Virus record (IMG/VR): IMGVR_UViG_2778261571_000001
Span: 1-6,584 of that record
DNA: 6,584 bases
From: a virus
Lineage: Duplodnaviria; Heunggongvirae; Uroviricota; Caudoviricetes
Reading direction: 5' to 3' (one strand)
Numbering within the stretch: the first letter of the stretch is position 1; the number at the start of each line of letters is the position of its first letter. Below are positions 6 to 6,584 of the stretch, in pieces. A model generated the notes under the pieces. It made no database searches and was not told where the DNA came from. It saw only the letters and a list, made by a program, of their open reading frames with translations. Position numbers and translations under genes: made by a program.

Positions 6-81
6 TGGTGCTGGTTAACGGACTTGAACCGCTACCCATTCGCTTACAAGGCGACTGCTCTACCATTGGAGCTAAACCAGC
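6..81 (-). tRNA. tRNA, anticodon UGU (Thr) by manual folding; 76 nt with encoded CCA
   Basis: Reverse complement of 6..81 folds as a cloverleaf: 7-bp perfect acceptor stem GCTGGTT/AACCAGC, D-stem GCTC/GAGC, anticodon stem GTCGC/GCGAA (one G:A mismatch at 27:43), loop CTTGTAA, T-stem AGCGG/CCGTT with loop TTCAAGT, discriminator A, CCA. Position 14 is C rather than the usual A. Folded by eye, not with tRNAscan. Confidence 0.6.
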
Positions 82-86
82 ATATT

Positions 87-161
87 TGGCGGGACAGCGT
101 GGACTCGAACCACGATAAGAAGGTTAACAGCCTTCCGTGATTACCTTTATACGACTGACCC
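87..161 (-). tRNA. tRNA-like element with Asn-type anticodon loop (GUU); degenerate D-arm, possible pseudo-tRNA
   Basis: Reverse complement shows a perfect T-arm CGTGG-TTCGAGT-CCACG, a perfect anticodon arm GAAGG-CTGTTAA-CCTTC and an encoded CCA, but the D-stem GTAT/TCAC has two mismatches and the acceptor stem GGGTCAG/CTGTCCC has a T:T mismatch at position 4:69. It starts immediately after the tR' U-tract and lies 5 nt upstream of the first tRNA. Confidence 0.4.
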
Positions 162-1603: not shown

Positions 1604-2128
1604 TTATCCTCTCCCATGATTATGGTGATACCCCAATCGTGATTCCGCCAATTTTCTGGCATTAACGGCTAGAGATATGTCATCGTATAATCCAAGAAAT
1701 ATCTTTTTATTATCACTGTTTATATATGCGCCCCACTTTTTATTCTTCTTATAGTAGGCAACACCCATTACTCCAGAGCGATTATTAATAGGCTTTTTTC
1801 TGTTCCTTGAGTTCTGTTTATCATCTACAACGCGCAAATTGCATATTCTGTTATCGCTTTTAATTCCATTTATGTGGTCAATTTCCCCATCAGGTTCGCT
1901 TCCATAAAATGATATCCATGCGATTCTATGAGCTCGACAAACTTTTTTATTTACAGATATACGAACGTATCCTTTTTCATCTATAGAACCAGCAATCTTA
2001 CCGGCATATGTTGAATTCCAGCACTCTCTTACACTTTCTCTTCTTTTGTATATAAACAAACCTGTTTCGCTATTATATTCATACAATTCATTGATTTCTT
2101 TTTGTGTTGGATATCTTTTACCGTTCAT
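1604..2128 (-). CDS. HNH homing-type endonuclease with C-terminal AP2 DNA-binding domain
   Basis: 174-aa ORF with ATG start. HNH core EIDHINGIKSDNRICNLRVV and an AP2-like segment SGVMGVAYYKKNKKWGAYI. The gene is visibly more AT-rich than its neighbours. Its start overlaps the upstream stop (ATGA). Confidence 0.8.
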   Translation of the reverse strand: MNGKRYPTQKEINELYEYNSETGLFIYKRRESVRECWNSTYAGKIAGSIDEKGYVRISVNKKVCRAHRIAWISFYGSEPDGEIDHINGIKSDNRICNLRVVDDKQNSRNRKKPINNRSGVMGVAYYKKNKKWGAYINSDNKKIFLGLYDDISLAVNARKLAESRLGYHHNHGRG

Positions 2129-2415
2129 GACTTAATCTTCCCCTCCTTCAGCAGTATCGCCTGCGTCCTGATCACGCCTTCGAGGTGGTAAAGTCTGGCG
2201 TCTTTGTTGTCGAGATTATGGGTGCGTCGGTCGATCTCCGCGTGGCAGTCACTACAAGCCCATGCGCCGATCAGGTCGTCAGGCTTCATCCCCGTTCCAC
2301 AAATTCCAGCCATCCGGTAATGTGCCAGAACTGTAGTTTCAGGATTACCATTGCATACGCCGTAAATACGTACCTGGCATTCTCTGCCGCGTGCTTCTTT
2401 GCGTAGATTAGCCAT
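2125..2415 (-). CDS. ybcO: Cys-rich DUF1364/YbcO-family nin-region protein (putative nuclease)
   Basis: 96-aa ORF with ATG start and a GGGGAGG Shine-Dalgarno. The pattern RGRECQVRIxGVCNGNPETxVLAH...CGTG.KP.DL....ACS.CH.EIDRRTH resembles the DLP12 YbcO protein as I recall it. In DLP12, ybcO sits directly upstream of rusA. Confidence 0.6.
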   Translation of the reverse strand: MANLRKEARGRECQVRIYGVCNGNPETTVLAHYRMAGICGTGMKPDDLIGAWACSDCHAEIDRRTHNLDNKDARLYHLEGVIRTQAILLKEGKIKS

Positions 2416-3140
2416 TAAGCAGCCTCCCCTGTTACTTTCAGCATTCCGTTATCGAGCAGCTTTCTGGTCAGCCACTGTTGACCACGCCCGGTGATTTTTG
2501 TGGTGAACGATATCTGTATTCCGTGATTTGTGTTGACCGCTGTTTCTTTCACTGTGAAATAGCCGCGATCCATATATTCCTGCATTGGCACATTGCGCCG
2601 GGAACCTGAAGCAATAAGGATTTTGTGATCGCGCATCCACGCAAACAGTTTGTTTTGACCAATTCCAACAACCTTTGCAAAGTTTCCAATCAAAATTCCG
2701 CTGGCCTCGCCAACTCGATCGGCAAACTCAACTTTAGGTGCGGCAATTGCGAGCTGGTTTTCCAGTTGCATTTTCTGCTCAGCAAGATCAGCAGCAAGGC
2801 GCAACGCTTCCGGTAGCGTTTTGGGGATATTAACCGCAGCTTCTTCAAGCTCTCGCCAGCGGTCAACAAGGCGAGCGGTGAACTCTGGCGACAACTGGGC
2901 GACGACAATAATGCTGTCTCGCTTTCCTTGTTCGCCCTCGAAGACGTAGAAATCACGCTTCCCGGTAATAACACCTAAATCATTGATTATGTTAGTGTGC
3001 TGCAATGCAGGAGGCTTGATAACGCCACGTTTCACCAATCTATCTATGGATACTTTTACATTGCTATGGCGGCTTTCTACCAACTCAGCGATTTCAATGC
3101 TTGTCATTTTGATGGCATTGCCATTTATTAACTCATTCAT
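2415..3140 (-). CDS. Phage regulatory protein, Rha-like N-terminus with KilA-C (ANT) C-terminal domain; putative antirepressor
   Basis: 241-aa ORF with ATG start. The C-terminal segment NVPMQEYMDRGYF fits the KilA-C antirepressor domain signature. The N-terminus (MTSIEIAELV...HSNV...I..L) is Rha-like. Confidence 0.65.
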   Translation of the reverse strand: MNELINGNAIKMTSIEIAELVESRHSNVKVSIDRLVKRGVIKPPALQHTNIINDLGVITGKRDFYVFEGEQGKRDSIIVVAQLSPEFTARLVDRWRELEEAAVNIPKTLPEALRLAADLAEQKMQLENQLAIAAPKVEFADRVGEASGILIGNFAKVVGIGQNKLFAWMRDHKILIASGSRRNVPMQEYMDRGYFTVKETAVNTNHGIQISFTTKITGRGQQWLTRKLLDNGMLKVTGEAA

Positions 3141-3303: not shown

Positions 3304-3482
3304 CTTGTTTTCCTCGCACGTTCTCTTAGCCACCGGATATCCCACAGGTGAGCCGTGTAGTTGAAGGTTTTTACGTCAGATTCTTTTGGGATTGGCTTGC
3401 GTTTATTTCTGGATCGTTTCGTTGGAAGGTATTTGCAGTTTTCGCAGATGATATCGATGAAACTTCGTCGCTGTCGTCTCAT
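3300..3482 (-). CDS. ninE: NinE
   Basis: 60-aa ORF with ATG start. [23 protein letters not shown]...[15 protein letters not shown] is near-identical to lambda NinE as I recall it. Its start overlaps the NinB stop (ATGA). Confidence 0.85.
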
Positions 3483-3889
3483 TCGTACCTCCTGTCGGTA
3501 AATCTGACACCCTGACCAATAGCCCAGGCTGTTGTGTACTCGATCAGACTTGCCATGCGCTTCACGCTCATCTGCGCGCTGCTTTCGCGAATGTTGACGT
3601 ATTCGCCTTCAAGGCCTGGCAAAACATCAGCTTCCTGCTTTGTTGCCACTGCATGACCGCTGATCAACAAAACCTTCCATTGTTCCGGTTTTAACCATTT
3701 GCCGCACCATTGAACCTGACGTGCGATATCCGCCAGCATCGCGTGAAATTTTGCGTTCTGGTCAAGGTTGCGCTTGTAGTCAGTAATGCGGATGGTGACT
3801 GGCTTGTCTTTATCGAGTGGTGTTGCGAGGATGGCATTTATTGCGGCTTGCTGTTGTTGCTTAGTTCGGAGGAAGATTGTTTGCTTCAC
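3479..3889 (-). CDS. ninB: NinB (Orf-family recombination mediator)
   Basis: 136-aa ORF with a GTG start preceded by AAGGAG. The motifs LDQN.K.......I..QV.W.G and Y...S.AQM resemble lambda NinB. It occupies the standard position at the head of the nin cluster. Confidence 0.8.
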
Positions 3890-3900
3890 TGAATACTCCT

Positions 3901-4086
3901 TTATTTTTTATGCCTGTAACCCCATTCTTCCAGCAACCTTGCGGCGTACCACCCAAGAAACAAAGGAAAGAACATTACAATGAGATATTCCCCGCCACGG
4001 TCAATGTTCGAAATTGACCAGATTACGATGTAACCAGTGCAGAACAGGAATATTACAAACCCCAAAAAGCTACTTCGTCGACTCAT
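3901..4086 (-). CDS. Hypothetical small membrane protein (2 predicted TM helices)
   Basis: ORF of ~61 aa from ATG at 4086 (the track's 63-aa version starts at a GTG at 4092). AAGGAG lies 5 nt upstream of the ATG. Two hydrophobic stretches (FLGFVIFLFCTGYIVIWSI and YLIVMFFPLFLGWYAARLL) and a basic C-terminal tail. No family recognised. Confidence 0.45.
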   Translation of the reverse strand: MSRRSSFLGFVIFLFCTGYIVIWSISNIDRGGEYLIVMFFPLFLGWYAARLLEEWGYRHKK

Positions 4087-4088
4087 GC

Positions 4089-4409
4089 TCACTCCTTCAC
4101 TTTGATTCCAGCAGCGCGGATGTTTTCCTCATAAGCATCCATTGCATCACCGAAGCCATTGGAATAATCAACAGTAAACCCTTTGGCTAATGCTTCTCTG
4201 CTGTCGATAAACTTTGGCGCGGTTATTTCAATAGCTGATCGCGATGCCTGCCACGTTTGCCAGTGGCCTTGAACATCGTCCATCACGTATTGACCACCAA
4301 TATTACCACTGCCAATTTCATGGTGATTTTCAGGGTAACGGATAAGGTCTGAGGATTCGCCTCCACGTCGCAACCAACTTTCTTCAAACTGCTTTCTTGA
4401 TTCGTCCAT
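4089..4409 (-). CDS. Hypothetical acidic soluble protein, ~106 aa
   Basis: ATG start with a GAGGGT Shine-Dalgarno. No recognisable catalytic motif. Tightly packed between two small 2-TM ORFs. Confidence 0.55.
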   Translation of the reverse strand: MDESRKQFEESWLRRGGESSDLIRYPENHHEIGSGNIGGQYVMDDVQGHWQTWQASRSAIEITAPKFIDSREALAKGFTVDYSNGFGDAMDAYEENIRAAGIKVKE

Positions 4410-4426
4410 CGATACTTACCCTCAGT

Positions 4427-4633
4427 TCAACTCACAAAACGCCACGCCATTTTTGCTACAGCGACAGGCATAACACCGATAATCACCCAGACAAATGCAG
4501 CGCCAAACAACGTATACCATGGGTCTTTACCGTCATTCACAAGACGAATGTAGCTATGCAGAACAATAAATAACGTCAGAAGAATCCATCCAACGCCAAC
4601 GCATTTGAATGCGACGAGCATAAACTCAGCCAC
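4427..4633 (-). CDS. Hypothetical small membrane protein (2 predicted TM helices)
   Basis: 68-aa ORF from GTG at 4633 (GGGGGAGAG upstream); an alternative ATG at 4621 would give 64 aa. Two hydrophobic helices (LVAFKCVGVGWILLTLFIVL and LFGAAFVWVIIGVMPVAVA). The start is uncertain. Confidence 0.4.
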   Translation of the reverse strand: MAEFMLVAFKCVGVGWILLTLFIVLHSYIRLVNDGKDPWYTLFGAAFVWVIIGVMPVAVAKMAWRFVS

Positions 4634-4649
4634 GATTTACTCTCCCCCA

Positions 4650-4680
4650 AATAAAAAGGCCTGCGATTACCAGCAGGCCT
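4650..4680 (-). terminator. Intrinsic terminator downstream of the helicase gene (tR2-like position)
   Basis: 8-bp perfect GC-rich stem AGGCCTGC/GCAGGCCT (plus 4657..4664 and 4673..4680) with an 8-nt loop. On the minus strand it is followed by TTTTTATTT. Confidence 0.55.
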
Positions 4681-4708
4681 GTTATTAGCTCAGTGATGTA
4701 GATGGTCA

Positions 4709-6145
4709 TCAGAATCCTCCTTTCTTCTTGGACTGCGGTTCCTCGCGTTCACGGCGGCGCATTTCAGCAGACTGTTGGTCTGTGTCATAAATAGCGCCAT
4801 TTGCCTGAATGCAATACACCGTGCCGGTATTGCCATGACGATTGAGACGAAGGATTAGTTCGGTTTCACCAGGTGGAACACTGTCATCAAAAGCACCTTC
4901 ACGATGGATCCCCACCCAATAATCGCAATCCTGTTCAATCTGCCCTGTATCTCTGGAGTCACTTGGTAATGGGCGTTTATTGGTTCGGCTTTCCAGTGCG
5001 CGGTTAAGCTGTGTCAGAAGCACAACAACGCAATCAAGCTCTTTGGCAAGGTTCTTCAGTCCTTTGGTGATCATGCCGTAAGCAAGGTCGTTGCGATCGG
5101 CCTTTTCAGCGGTCATTAGTGTCAGGTAATCGACCAGAATCATGCCAACACATCCTTTTTCTCGCTTGATTCGACGGCTTTCGCTGACGATTTGAGCCAG
5201 AGATAATCCCGGCGTGTCGTCGATGTAAAGCAGGTCGATTTCACTTAAGCGATTGGCTGTTTCGATCGCCCTGTTGAAGTCACCATCGTAATCACCCTGA
5301 TAGCCGTCATCAGCGTCATTTGTCGCCGGAAGGTAAAAAATATTCGGGTTAACACCTGACTTCTGTCCCACCAGTTTTTCCAGTATCTGGTCACCAGGCA
5401 TTTCAAGGCTGAACATCAGAGCGGGCTTTTTCTCATGCACTGCGCAGTTGATTGCCATCTGGCTGTATAGCGTCGTTTTCCCCATCTTAGGGCGGGCGCC
5501 AATGACAAACAGAGAGCCTTTCACCAGACCTTTCGGTGACAGCATCCTGTCCAGCGATGGGATCCCTGTGCTCATTCCTCGTTGCTCGCCTGACGGGTCA
5601 AATCGCTTCTCAAGGTCGCTAACCCAGTCTTCCATGACCTCACCAAATGAGCGAAGGCCGCGACGCGATCCGGTTTTTGCATGGTCTGTCAGTTGCGTGA
5701 AAATCGCCTGAATAGCTTCGTACTTCTGCGTTGCAGTCATTCCGTTGCGGGAATATAGCAATTCCGTCGCTTCAGTCATGCGGTTGATGGCGTAGCGTTC
5801 CATTGCGGTTTCGCGAACCTGCATTGCATAGGCAACGATGTTTGCGGAGCTTGGCGTGTTCTTTGCGATCTCAGCGATATAAGCAAAACCGCCAACAGAC
5901 GCCGTTAACGATTTACGCTCCAGTTCATCGAAAAGCGTCAGGCCATCTACTGGCTTTTGCTCCCGGTGCATTCTGGTTATTTCTTCGAAAAGGATTTTGT
6001 GTGGTCGGCTGTAAAATGAATCAGGCTTCAGCATCGCCAGAACTTTCTGGACGCGCTCACTGCTGTCATCATCCAGAAGCAATCCACCAATCACCGCCTG
6101 CTCTGCCTCGATGCTATTTGGCGGCGAATAAAAATTATCGGTCAT
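4709..6145 (-). CDS. Replicative DNA helicase, DnaB family (phage P22 gene 12-type)
   Basis: Walker A GARPKMGKT, DnaB N-terminal motif SIEAEQAVIGGLL, and a DnaB-like H2 region GMILVDYLTLM. I place the start at the ATG at 6145..6143 (GAGG Shine-Dalgarno ~9 nt upstream) rather than the GTG at 6160 used by the ORF track. Confidence 0.9.
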   Translation of the reverse strand: MTDNFYSPPNSIEAEQAVIGGLLLDDDSSERVQKVLAMLKPDSFYSRPHKILFEEITRMHREQKPVDGLTLFDELERKSLTASVGGFAYIAEIAKNTPSSANIVAYAMQVRETAMERYAINRMTEATELLYSRNGMTATQKYEAIQAIFTQLTDHAKTGSRRGLRSFGEVMEDWVSDLEKRFDPSGEQRGMSTGIPSLDRMLSPKGLVKGSLFVIGARPKMGKTTLYSQMAINCAVHEKKPALMFSLEMPGDQILEKLVGQKSGVNPNIFYLPATNDADDGYQGDYDGDFNRAIETANRLSEIDLLYIDDTPGLSLAQIVSESRRIKREKGCVGMILVDYLTLMTAEKADRNDLAYGMITKGLKNLAKELDCVVVLLTQLNRALESRTNKRPLPSDSRDTGQIEQDCDYWVGIHREGAFDDSVPPGETELILRLNRHGNTGTVYCIQANGAIYDTDQQSAEMRRREREEPQSKKKGGF

Positions 6146-6584
6146 CGTGTTCACCCTCACGAACTTTCAGGTAGGTATTATCGTTAAGCAGGAAATCAAA
6201 TCCCTTTTTGTGCCAGACGGTTCCGCGCTGATGGTTTGGGCGCTCTTCGAACATCCATCGGCAATTTTCGCCTACGTAGTTCAAATAATTTCTCCAGTCC
6301 TGCATCGTGAACCCATGCCCGTCAAGCTGGCGGGTTATCACTCCGGCTTTGCGCCAGAACGTTCGGATCTGGTTTTTACGCTTGTCATTCAGTGCGCGGA
6401 TTTTTGGCGCTTCAGGAAGGATTTCGTGGTAAGCATCGACAACATCCTGACAGCTGACGGAAGGTTTTTTCTTGTCAGACTTTTTGTCTGCTGTGGCACT
6501 CTCTAATACGTCAGTATTAGAGATATTATTTATATTATTGTTTATGGACAACCGTTGGACAACCGTTGGACAATCTCCGCTGAG
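6135..6584 (-). CDS. O-like replication initiator, C-terminal portion (5'-truncated by the window edge)
   Basis: The reading frame stays open on the minus strand to position 6584, so the TTG 'start' at 6551 in the ORF track is an artefact. The ORF contains iterons, an AT-rich tract and a palindrome, as the lambda O gene does. The stop lies 5 nt upstream of the helicase start. Confidence 0.65.
   Translation of the reverse strand, partial: LSGDCPTVVQRLSINNNINNISNTDVLESATADKKSDKKKPSVSCQDVVDAYHEILPEAPKIRALNDKRKNQIRTFWRKAGVITRQLDGHGFTMQDWRNYLNYVGENCRWMFEERPNHQRGTVWHKKGFDFLLNDNTYLKVREGEHDDR
6501..6546. other. Origin AT-rich unwinding tract (6523..6546) plus 9-bp inverted repeat CTCTAATAC/GTATTAGAG (6501..6522)
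   Basis: A strongly AT-rich stretch, with a perfect 9-bp inverted repeat and 4-bp spacer next to it. The order iterons, AT-rich, palindrome on the coding strand mirrors lambda ori. Confidence 0.55.
6547..6574. repeat. Origin iterons: tandem 11-bp direct repeats GGACAACCGTT (2 full copies plus a partial third; array may continue off-window)
   Basis: Exact tandem copies at 6547..6557 and 6558..6568, then GGACAA at 6569..6574. The ~one-helical-turn period and position next to an AT-rich tract inside the initiator gene fit iterons. Confidence 0.6.

What the first reader, a model, noticed from the sequence alone, without database searches (positions are those of the whole stretch)
3901..4680. Three-gene cassette (2-TM protein, acidic soluble protein, 2-TM protein) in the ren position, preceded by a terminator
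Between the helicase and ninB, where lambda carries ren, there are three tightly packed ORFs with no recognisable family: a 68-aa 2-TM protein, a 106-aa acidic soluble protein and a ~61-aa 2-TM protein. The gaps between them are 17 and 2 nt, and two have good ribosome-binding sites. An intrinsic terminator (4650..4680) sits directly upstream and overlaps the putative RBS of the first gene, so expression probably depends on N-mediated antitermination or on an internal promoter. This slot in lambdoid phages often holds superinfection-exclusion or host-interaction morons. The two-small-membrane-proteins-plus-soluble-partner layout is compatible with an exclusion, abortive-infection or toxin/antitoxin-like module, but that is inference only.
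Basis: partly seen in the sequence, partly recalled or inferred. Interest (0 to 1): 0.6.

Follow-up and report, generated by a model that had tools for sequence, protein, structure and literature searches.

The report
Three accessory genes behind lambda tR2
Three small real genes of unknown function (two membrane hairpins and one soluble protein) fill a swap-prone slot between the lambda tR2 terminator and ninB in an E. coli lambdoid prophage, but each occurs without the others elsewhere, so they look like ordinary phage accessory genes and not a three-part system.

Summary
On the minus strand, between a DnaB-type helicase and ninB, lie ORF1 (68 aa, 2 TM), ORF2 (106 aa, pI 4.9, soluble) and ORF3 (61 aa, 2 TM). 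The gaps are 17 and 2 nt, and a terminator sits upstream.

The terminator is lambda tR2 itself, base-for-base, together with the tiny NinA ORF that is translated across it. In lambda and P22 ninB follows tR2 directly. Here three genes are inserted.

All three show coding signatures, including ORF3, which RefSeq's pipeline left unannotated in all 40 listed genomes.

The "cassette" reading fails. Among 114 distinct tR2-to-ninB slots, ORF1 occurs alone, ORF1+ORF2 occur without ORF3, and ORF3 occurs without ORF1 or ORF2. ORF2 relatives also sit in unrelated Swiduovirus and Klebsiella phages with no membrane neighbour. Mosaic breakpoints cut through ORF1 and ORF2. ren sits upstream of tR2 and can coexist with the trio.

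There are no defence-system or solved-fold matches, and the only family hits are function-unknown ones (PHROG 1165, PHROG 343/PF26207). No internal promoter was found.

Best reading: independent, N-antitermination-dependent delayed-early accessory genes acting in lytic growth. Their function is unknown. The finding is ordinary and of low to moderate interest.

The parts
4709..6160 (-). DnaB-type replicative helicase (P22 gp12 / HK022 P type). It forms the upstream border of the slot.
   Evidence: Pfam DnaB_C E 2.9e-60 and DnaB E 7.7e-31.
4626..4709 (-). NinA mini-ORF (27 aa, hydrophobic) that is translated across tR2. Its ATG shares one base with the helicase TGA (TGATG). Its TGA lies 5 nt after the ORF1 GTG (GTGGCTGA).
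   Evidence: Read from the sequence. The same ORF is annotated ninA in HK620, SPN9CC, HK630 and P22. The lambda NinA start 30 bp upstream of tR2 is described in PMC4824070. There is no Pfam hit. Whether the peptide has any function is unknown.
4647..4680 (-). Intrinsic terminator tR2: stem-loop 4680-4657 and T-tract 4656-4647.
   Evidence: Terminator scan. The sequence is identical to the lambda ren-ninB intergenic tR2 and to the site annotated tR2 in HK620. The hairpin is present in the RNA fold.
4427..4633 (-). ORF1: a 68-aa two-helix membrane hairpin. The predicted N-in/C-in topology is my reading of the charge distribution. When present it is the first gene after tR2.
   Evidence: PHROG 1165, E 5.5e-38, full length. 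Two hydrophobic segments. AlphaFold helices 2-33 and 38-67, pLDDT 89. Invariant G35-K36 turn (D37 nearly invariant) and an invariant run P56-F66 (PVAxAKMAWRF) in the C-terminal tail. All 72 full-length alleles are intact.
4089..4409 (-). ORF2: a 106-aa acidic soluble protein. Three conserved segments (MDESRKQFEE, WxxWQASRAAIEI, IRAAGIKVKE) frame two exchangeable variable segments.
   Evidence: PHROG 343, E 3e-30. PF26207 is precomputed on homologues. Alignment. 842 clusters at E<=1e-3 among 1.84 billion representatives. AlphaFold pLDDT 70, with residues 19-40 disordered. No fold match.
3901..4086 (-). ORF3: a 61-aa two-helix membrane hairpin of very narrow distribution. Its ribosome-binding site AAGGAG lies in the last codons of ORF2.
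   Evidence: Hydropathy. Only 4 clusters among 5.8 billion proteins. dN/dS 0.19 against a 72% homologue. All 17 full-length alleles are intact, with codon-position bias 22/8/26. Unannotated in all 40 listed RefSeq genomes.
3479..3889 (-). ninB (Orf recombination mediator). It forms the downstream border of the slot.
   Evidence: Pfam NinB, E 1e-55.

Best explanation
The region is the hypervariable accessory slot that lambdoid phages carry between the tR2 terminator and ninB. It is occupied here by three independent, individually exchangeable genes.

Shown:
- The pR-operon context.
- The lambda tR2/NinA element immediately upstream.
- No internal promoter consensus.
- Coding signatures for all three genes.
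- Independent assortment and intragenic mosaic breakpoints.

Follows from established lambda biology: the genes are transcribed only when N-modified RNA polymerase reads through tR2. They are therefore delayed-early lytic genes and are not lysogen-expressed. Ribosomes translating NinA across the hairpin end 5 nt past the ORF1 start and probably couple into ORF1, as NinA couples into ninB in lambda.

Inferred, low confidence:
- ORF1 and ORF3 insert into the inner membrane as N-in/C-in helical hairpins. Each acts alone by binding a host or competitor membrane protein during lytic growth. Possible roles are lytic-phase exclusion of superinfecting DNA or blocking a membrane-acting abortive-infection effector.
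- ORF2 is a cytoplasmic host-takeover or anti-defence factor. Its two swappable segments would set target specificity.
For: - tR2 identity with lambda and the NinA overlap.
- The slot is empty in lambda and P22.
- No sigma-70-like site on either strand within 3900-4700.
- Census of IMG/VR loci: 192 of 219 NinB-containing loci carry the tR2 motif. There are 114 distinct slot sequences of 237-1353 nt. Their architectures include ORF1-ORF2 (33), ORF1-ORF2-ORF3 (24), ORF1 alone (24) and f6-ORF3-TM60 (6).
- Sharp mosaic breakpoints inside ORF1 (about 4490) and ORF2 (about 4250 and 4130).
- The trio follows three different replication modules: a DnaB-type helicase, P+ren, and a DnaC-like ATPase with a ren-sized gene.
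- ORF2 homologues lie in early-gene clusters of Swiduovirus and Klebsiella phages, two genes after a Lar-like restriction-alleviation gene. I take these phages to be virulent, but that was not checked here. If so, it points to a lytic-cycle role.
- Coding tests.
Against: - No functional evidence exists for any of the three proteins. Nothing informative came from Pfam, NCBIfam, PADLOC, PDB sequence search or fold searches.
- The promoter scan is a crude consensus search, so a weak or non-sigma-70 promoter could be missed.
- ORF1 and ORF2 are adjacent in 48 of 55 distinct ORF2-anchored slots. One highly conserved block spans the ORF1 3' end and the ORF2 5' half. Some functional link between those two is therefore not excluded.
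- The census is anchored on the three genes and limited to the best 80 loci per query, so the frequencies are biased.
Confidence: 0.55

Rival explanations
1. The three genes form one functional module. Two small membrane proteins and a soluble partner act together in exclusion, abortive infection or a toxin/antitoxin-like system.
For: - Tight packing: gaps of 17 and 2 nt, and the ORF3 ribosome-binding site lies inside the ORF2 3' end.
- ORF1-ORF2-ORF3 is a common arrangement: 24 distinct slot sequences in 54 loci, and 93 of 5426 E. coli genomes hold at least 80% of the 911-nt region.
- 51 of 61 ORF3 loci have an ORF2-family gene directly upstream.
Against: - Each gene occurs without the others: ORF1 alone (HK620, HK630 and 24 distinct slots), ORF1+ORF2 without ORF3 (33 slots, HK022), ORF3 without ORF1 or ORF2 upstream (9 loci, and L012), and ORF2 without ORF1 (19 of 80 loci).
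- The ORF2|ORF3 co-occurrence (about 0.84) is no higher than ORF2|ORF1 (0.86). It therefore reflects how common ORF2 is in the slot and not a specific linkage.
- ORF2 homologues in Swiduovirus, Klebsiella and Yersinia phages have soluble neighbours only.
- No PADLOC hit.
- Tight packing is the norm throughout nin regions (PMC8022706).
Confidence: 0.08
2. ORF1 and ORF2 are a functional pair, a membrane hairpin plus a soluble partner. ORF3 is an unrelated add-on.
For: - ORF1 is present in 48 of 55 distinct ORF2-anchored slots and 69 of 80 ORF1-anchored loci have an ORF2-family gene.
- The spacing is a constant 17 nt.
- One block from the ORF1 3' end to mid-ORF2 is 97-100% identical across genomes whose flanks are about 50% identical. 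That piece therefore travels together.
Against: - ORF1 stands alone directly before ninB in HK620, HK630, HK75 and 24 distinct slots.
- ORF2-family genes lack ORF1 in 19 of 80 anchored loci, in Gally, and in Swiduovirus, Klebsiella and Yersinia phages.
- The shared block is equally well explained as a recombination linker between allelic ORF1 and ORF2 halves.
Confidence: 0.17
3. The genes are lysogen-expressed morons that protect the host, for example by superinfection exclusion as with P22 SieA or HK97 gp15.
For: - Small inner-membrane proteins are a typical form of exclusion factor (established knowledge).
- The slot is enriched in small membrane proteins: ORF1, ORF3, TM60 and TM107 make up 77 of 91 companion genes.
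- GC is slightly lower (0.43-0.46) than in the flanks (0.48-0.50).
Against: - No promoter-like site lies in or before the cassette on either strand.
- The genes sit inside the pR operon directly behind tR2, so in a repressed prophage they should be silent.
- No terminator follows them, and ninB starts 11 nt after ORF3.
- I take the Swiduovirus and Klebsiella phages that carry ORF2 homologues to be virulent. That was not checked here.
Confidence: 0.12
4. One or more of the ORFs, ORF3 above all, is a chance ORF and not a gene.
For: - PGAP leaves ORF3 unannotated in all 40 listed RefSeq genomes.
- No family matches, and only 4 protein clusters exist in 5.8 billion.
Against: - dN/dS is 0.19 against a 72%-identical, same-length homologue.
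- All 17 full-length alleles are intact, and second codon positions vary least (22/8/26).
- A strong AAGGAG lies 5 nt before the ATG.
- The gene is annotated in phages vB_EcoP-611R6 and phiv205-1.
Confidence: 0.04

Closest known systems
Lambda tR2 / NinA / ninB junction (nin region of lambda, P22, HK620)
   Same: The sequence from the NinA ATG through the tR2 hairpin, T-tract and GGGGAGAG ribosome-binding site is identical to lambda. It has the same position at the end of the replication genes. The mini-ORF is translated across the terminator in the same way.
   Different: In lambda and P22 the ribosome-binding site after tR2 serves ninB, and the NinA stop overlaps the ninB ATG. Here it serves ORF1, and about 740 nt (three genes) separate tR2 from ninB.
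HK022 genes HK022_58/59/60 and vB_EcoP-611R6 URC09167-69 (annotated hypothetical proteins)
   Same: Same slot and same order. HK022_58 is an ORF1 allele (54% aa identity) and HK022_59 an ORF2 allele (73%). 611R6 has all three genes, at 96%, 72% and 98% aa identity.
   Different: HK022 carries a different, soluble 84-aa third gene and a different C-terminal ORF2 segment. No function is described for any of them.
Lambda Ren
   Same: A non-essential small gene between the replication genes and ninB.
   Different: Ren lies upstream of tR2, is soluble, and is unrelated in sequence. It coexists with the trio in some prophages. The trio is not a ren substitute.
Small inner-membrane phage exclusion proteins (T4 Imm/Sp, P22 SieA, HK97 gp15). 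This is a functional analogy only, recalled from knowledge.
   Same: Small size, helical membrane topology and phage origin. T4 Imm and Sp are also made early in lytic infection.
   Different: No sequence or family relationship was detected: Pfam and NCBIfam gave only sub-threshold hits to unrelated families, and PHROG 1165 carries no function. No phenotype is known. SieA and gp15 are lysogen-expressed, which the position behind tR2 argues against here.
Morons as defined for HK97/HK022 (promoter-gene-terminator units inserted between core genes)
   Same: Extra genes are present in some but not all related phages, at a fixed junction.
   Different: No promoter or terminator of their own was detected. 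GC is only slightly lower. They are embedded in the early operon and read from pR.

Membership tests
Lambda tR2 intrinsic terminator | The tR2 hairpin and U-tract sequence | tested here: met
   AGGCCTGCTGGTAATCGCAGGCCTTTTTATTTGG is identical in the window, lambda and HK620, where it is annotated tR2.
Lambda tR2 intrinsic terminator | Position after the replication genes, inside the NinA mini-ORF | tested here: met
   NinA is at 4709-4626 and spans the stem at 4680-4657. The same layout is described for lambda in PMC4824070 and annotated in P22.
Lambda tR2 intrinsic terminator | Terminates pR transcription and is overridden by N | not testable with these tools
   Follows from lambda biology. 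N and nutR lie outside the window.
PHROG 1165 (function unknown) | Full-length profile match | tested here: met
   ORF1 residues 1-68 match profile positions 1-68 of 68, E 5.5e-38.
PHROG 343 / Pfam PF26207 (function unknown; possibly the source of PGAP's name 'phiTE_015 family') | Profile match | tested here: met
   PHROG 343, E 3e-30. PF26207 is precomputed on 98%-identical homologues. The local Pfam and NCBIfam copies hold no matching model, so the PF26207 name and its link to the PGAP label are unverified.
Ren | Sequence similarity to lambda Ren and position upstream of tR2 | tested here: not met
   No Ren-related match was returned for any ORF by Pfam or PHROGs. ren is present upstream of tR2 alongside the trio in L007.
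Moron | Own promoter and terminator flanking the inserted gene(s) | tested here: not met
   No sigma-70-like site within 3900-4700 on either strand. No terminator lies between ORF3 and ninB. The scan is consensus-only.
Moron | Atypical base composition | tested here: inconclusive
   GC is 0.425-0.46 against 0.48-0.50 in the flanks, a small difference.
Known anti-phage defence, abortive-infection or toxin-antitoxin systems | Match to a defence-system protein model | tested here: not met
   PADLOC gave no hits at E<=1 for all three proteins.
Multi-gene system (any kind) | Components co-occur as a unit across genomes | tested here: not met
   Every gene is found without the others.
Class II holin / pinholin | Two TM helices with a charged C-terminus, encoded in the lysis cassette downstream of Q | tested here: not met
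   Two TM helices are present, but the genes lie in the early operon upstream of Q (436-1059). The ORF1 tail has only 2 basic residues. No holin family hit.
Phage superinfection-exclusion membrane proteins (SieA, Imm, Sp, Cor, gp15) | Homology to a characterised exclusion protein | tested here: not met
   No exclusion-protein family was among the Pfam, PHROG or NCBIfam matches; the only hits were sub-threshold and to unrelated families.
Phage superinfection-exclusion membrane proteins (SieA, Imm, Sp, Cor, gp15) | Blocks plating or DNA entry of other phages | not testable with these tools
   Needs expression and plating assays.

The most novel reading that the evidence does not exclude
The tR2-to-ninB slot may be a dedicated hotspot for small inner-membrane hairpin proteins. 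At least four unrelated families occur there (ORF1, ORF3, TM60, TM107), plus the hydrophobic NinA peptide. They would all aim at the same host membrane process during early lytic growth, for example shutting the DNA-entry route or disarming membrane-depolarising abortive-infection effectors.

ORF2, a large family with two swappable segments on a conserved three-segment scaffold, may be a modular anti-defence protein whose segment exchange tracks host immunity.
Probability: 0.1. Interest if true: 0.6.

Novelty: already known. Interest (0 to 1): 0.25.

Why it matters
The significance is modest.

- The slot and its genes are common. DNA of this ORF1 allele occurs in 420 of 5426 complete E. coli genomes and ORF3 DNA in 195. 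The ORF2 family has 842 clusters among 1.84 billion representatives.
- None of the three proteins has a described function, so they are reasonable candidates for accessory-gene screens.
- RefSeq's pipeline left ORF3 unannotated in every listed genome, although it behaves as a conserved coding gene.
- The locus is a clean example of lambdoid mosaicism. Breakpoints fall inside genes, and the tR2/NinA element acts as the fixed joint between the replication and nin modules.

Tried and rejected
- Family searches. Pfam, NCBIfam and PADLOC scans of all three proteins gave only sub-threshold noise (T4SS_pilin, Acyl_transf_3, an antiporter subunit).
- PGAP labels. NCBIfam scans of proteins that PGAP names 'phiTE_015 family' and 'FlbD family' found no model. 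The source of those names is unresolved.
- Pfam scan of 10 divergent ORF2 relatives: nothing.
- ORF1 against ORF3, profile-profile: unrelated (probability 0.45%).
- The Gally annotation 'similar to P22 EaD': the ORF2 profile finds nothing in the whole P22 genome, so this was rejected.
- ORF1 equated with NinA: rejected. NinA is the separate 27-aa ORF across tR2.
- Rfam at E<=0.1 finds only the two tRNAs.
- The second terminator-like site at 4598-4571 has 3 G-C pairs, lies inside ORF1 and is within chance expectation.
- Literature searches found no functional study of these proteins.
- H-19B copies could not be used because the record has frame disruptions there.
Full report
WHAT IS THERE

The window is the early-right (pR) operon of an E. 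coli lambdoid prophage, read on the minus strand. The genes, with Pfam assignments, run in this order:
- an O-like replication gene (6135-6551)
- a DnaB-type helicase (4709-6160)
- the region in question
- ninB (3479-3889)
- ninE
- ninF
- a Roi/KilAC antirepressor (2415-3140)
- YbcO (2125-2415)
- an HNH_3 endonuclease (1604-2128)
- RusA (1241-1603)
- NinH
- Q (436-1059)
- tRNA-Asn and tRNA-Thr

The closest complete E. coli genomes cover 84-89% of the window at about 96% identity.

CHECK OF THE OBSERVATION

| ORF | Coordinates | Start | Length | Hydrophobic stretches | pI |
|---|---|---|---|---|---|
| ORF1 | 4427-4633 | GTG | 68 aa | two | 9.0 |
| ORF2 | 4089-4409 | ATG | 106 aa | none | 4.9 |
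| ORF3 | 3901-4086 | ATG | 61 aa | two | 9.4 |

The gaps are 17 and 2 nt, and Shine-Dalgarno-like sequences precede all three. AlphaFold models ORF1 as a confident helical hairpin: helices 2-33 and 38-67, pLDDT 89.

The genes are real.
- The ORF3 homologue on contig L012 is 72% identical and has the same length. It gives dN/dS 0.19.
- Across the fetched loci, all 17 full-length ORF3 alleles and all 72 full-length ORF1 alleles are intact. Second codon positions vary least.
- This matters for ORF3 because RefSeq's pipeline leaves it unannotated in all 40 listed genomes. Only four protein clusters exist for it among 5.8 billion proteins.

THE TERMINATOR IS LAMBDA tR2

The hairpin at 4680-4657 with its T-tract is identical in sequence to two known sites. 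One is the tR2 terminator in the lambda ren-ninB intergenic region. The other is the site annotated tR2 in HK620.

The identity extends from the ATG of the 27-aa NinA mini-ORF (4709-4626) to the GGGGAGAG ribosome-binding site after the T-tract. The NinA ATG shares one base with the helicase stop codon. Its own stop lies 5 nt after the ORF1 GTG.

In lambda the same ribosome-binding site serves ninB, and the NinA stop overlaps the ninB ATG. In lambda and P22, ninB follows tR2 directly.

The NinA start and its position across tR2 are described in PMC4824070. That paper also shows that ribosomes close to tR2 suppress termination.

From established lambda biology, genes behind tR2 are expressed when N-modified polymerase reads through. 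No sigma-70-like promoter was found on either strand within 3900-4700. The trio is therefore best read as delayed-early lytic genes.

NOT THE REN POSITION, AND NOT A UNIT

ren lies upstream of tR2. In E. coli UTAK-6 the order is P-ren-tR2-ORF1-ORF2-ORF3-ninB. The same genes also follow a DnaC-like ATPase module and DnaB-type helicases.

I fetched IMG/VR loci anchored on each gene and scored them with profiles. The sets were 80 of 254 loci for ORF1, 80 of at least 324 for ORF2, and all 61 for ORF3.

Of 219 NinB-containing loci, 192 carry the tR2 motif. The tR2-to-ninB slot ranges from 237 to 1353 nt in 114 distinct sequences. The main architectures are:

| Architecture | Distinct slot sequences |
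|---|---|
| ORF1-ORF2 | 33 |
| ORF1-ORF2-ORF3 | 24 |
| ORF1 alone | 24 |
| ORF1-ORF2-ORF3-TM60 | 6 |
| f6-ORF3-TM60 | 6 |
| rarer arrangements | remainder |

Named phages show the same independence.
- HK620 and HK630 have ORF1 alone.
- HK022 has ORF1 and ORF2 plus a different, soluble 84-aa gene.
- Gally has an ORF2-like gene plus ORF3 and no ORF1.
- Contig L012 has an ORF3 homologue alone, 20 nt after a helicase.

The fraction of ORF3 loci with ORF2 directly upstream (51 of 61) is about the same as the fraction of ORF1-anchored loci with ORF2 (69 of 80). ORF2 is simply common in the slot.

ORF2 homologues in Swiduovirus swi2, Klebsiella phage KP591P1 and a Yersinia lambdoid phage have only soluble neighbours.

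ORF1 and ORF3 are unrelated to each other.

MOSAIC STRUCTURE

Alignment of the window with four other versions shows sharp breakpoints.
- tR2 is identical in all of them.
- Most of ORF1 (4640-4490) exists as two alleles about 50% identical at the nucleotide level.
- The block 4490-4250 (ORF1 3' end plus ORF2 5' half) is 97-100% identical in all.
- The second variable segment of ORF2 (4250-4130) comes in several unrelated versions.
- ORF3 is either present or replaced.

Breakpoints therefore fall inside genes. This fits the ORF2 protein alignment. Three conserved segments (MDESRKQFEE, WxxWQASRAAIEI, IRAAGIKVKE) frame two segments that are replaced wholesale. The conserved C-terminal codons of ORF2 also supply the AAGGAG ribosome-binding site for whatever gene follows.

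WHAT THE PROTEINS ARE

ORF1 matches PHROG 1165 and ORF2 matches PHROG 343. ORF2 homologues carry the precomputed domain PF26207. None of these families has a known function. ORF3 has no family.

The ORF2 family is large: 842 clusters at E<=1e-3 among 1.84 billion representatives. It is found in Escherichia, Salmonella, Cronobacter, Enterobacter, Citrobacter, Klebsiella and Yersinia phages.

The ORF2 AlphaFold model has pLDDT 70, with the first variable segment disordered. It has no informative match in the PDB or BFVD. PADLOC and NCBIfam give nothing useful. Literature searches found no functional work on any of the three proteins.

MOST LIKELY MECHANISM

Shown or well founded: these are three independent accessory genes in a recombination-prone slot. 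They are transcribed from pR through tR2 under N control, with ORF1 probably translationally coupled to NinA.

Inferred, at about 0.3 confidence:
- ORF1 and ORF3 are N-in/C-in inner-membrane hairpins. The topology is my reading of the charge distribution. Each would act by binding a membrane protein of the host or of a competitor during lytic growth.
- ORF2 is a cytoplasmic host-takeover or anti-defence factor. This rests on two observations. It occurs in early clusters of Swiduovirus and Klebsiella phages (which I take to be virulent, unchecked), two genes after a Lar-like restriction-alleviation gene. It also has a segment-swapping architecture.

RIVALS

- A three-gene module is contradicted by the census.
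- An ORF1-ORF2 pair remains possible. The two are adjacent in 48 of 55 distinct slots and share one conserved block, but each also occurs alone.
- Lysogen-expressed exclusion morons are disfavoured by the position behind tR2 and the lack of a promoter.
- A spurious ORF3 is disfavoured by the coding tests.

VERDICT

The "ren position" and "cassette/module" readings are not supported.

The feature is a catalogued, functionally uncharacterised set of lambdoid accessory genes at a known mosaic joint. It is of low to moderate interest. The main leads are the apparent richness of small membrane proteins in the slot (77 of 91 companion genes in ORF2-anchored slots, from biased sampling) and the large, modular ORF2 family.

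Noticed in passing
window 1604-2128 (minus strand): A 174-aa HNH_3 endonuclease ORF (Pfam E 1e-16) sits in a sharp GC trough (0.34 against about 0.49) between YbcO and RusA. It is absent from the otherwise collinear prophage L005, where the two genes abut. It looks like a free-standing homing-type HNH insertion.
   Followed up: partly
window 6-81 and 87-161 (minus strand): tRNA-Thr (TGT) and tRNA-Asn (GTT) genes lie directly downstream of the Q antiterminator gene. This is the position where Stx-type and related lambdoid phages carry tRNAs.
   Followed up: no
window 3901-4086: ORF3 DNA is present at 95-100% identity in 195 of 5426 complete E. coli genomes, but it is unannotated in all 40 listed rows. 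It nevertheless shows clear coding signatures. This looks like a systematic annotation gap for a small membrane protein.
   Followed up: yes
window 4250-4490: A block spanning the ORF1 3' end, the 17-nt spacer and the 5' half of ORF2 is 97-100% identical in genomes whose flanking ORF1 and ORF2 parts are only about 35-50% identical. The last 63 nt of ORF1 alone match at 93-100% in genomes whose remaining ORF1 sequence gives no match. This may be a recombination linker or an unrecognised constrained element.
   Followed up: partly
IMG/VR loci, e.g. L175, L057, L096, L181, L130: Other small membrane proteins occupy the same slot: TM60 (60 aa, 2 TM) and TM107 (about 107 aa, N-terminal TM). Some slots hold two ORF2-family paralogues (ORF1-ORF2-ORF3-TM60-ORF2-ninB).
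   Followed up: partly
proteins P0016/P0045; L236 2032-2283; L237 2206-2442: Some ORF2 homologues (138 aa) carry an N-terminal CxxC...CxC extension that looks like a zinc ribbon. In Swiduovirus and Klebsiella phages the ORF2 homologue lies two genes after a Lar-like zinc-ribbon restriction-alleviation gene. It is unclear whether the extension is a real fusion or an upstream start-codon call.
   Followed up: no
L004 (HK022) 1536-2300: HK022 has an insertion (HK022_56/57, about 700 nt) that begins just after the NinA start. It is followed by an intact tR2 hairpin before its ORF1 allele. The conserved joint has therefore been split by an insertion there.
   Followed up: no
L003 (H-19B, AF034975) 1700-2260: The H-19B record leaves the stretch between ren and nin orf-58-A unannotated, including ninB. 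Its ORF1 and ORF2 homologues there are broken by frame disruptions. These could be sequencing errors in an old record or pseudogenes.
   Followed up: no
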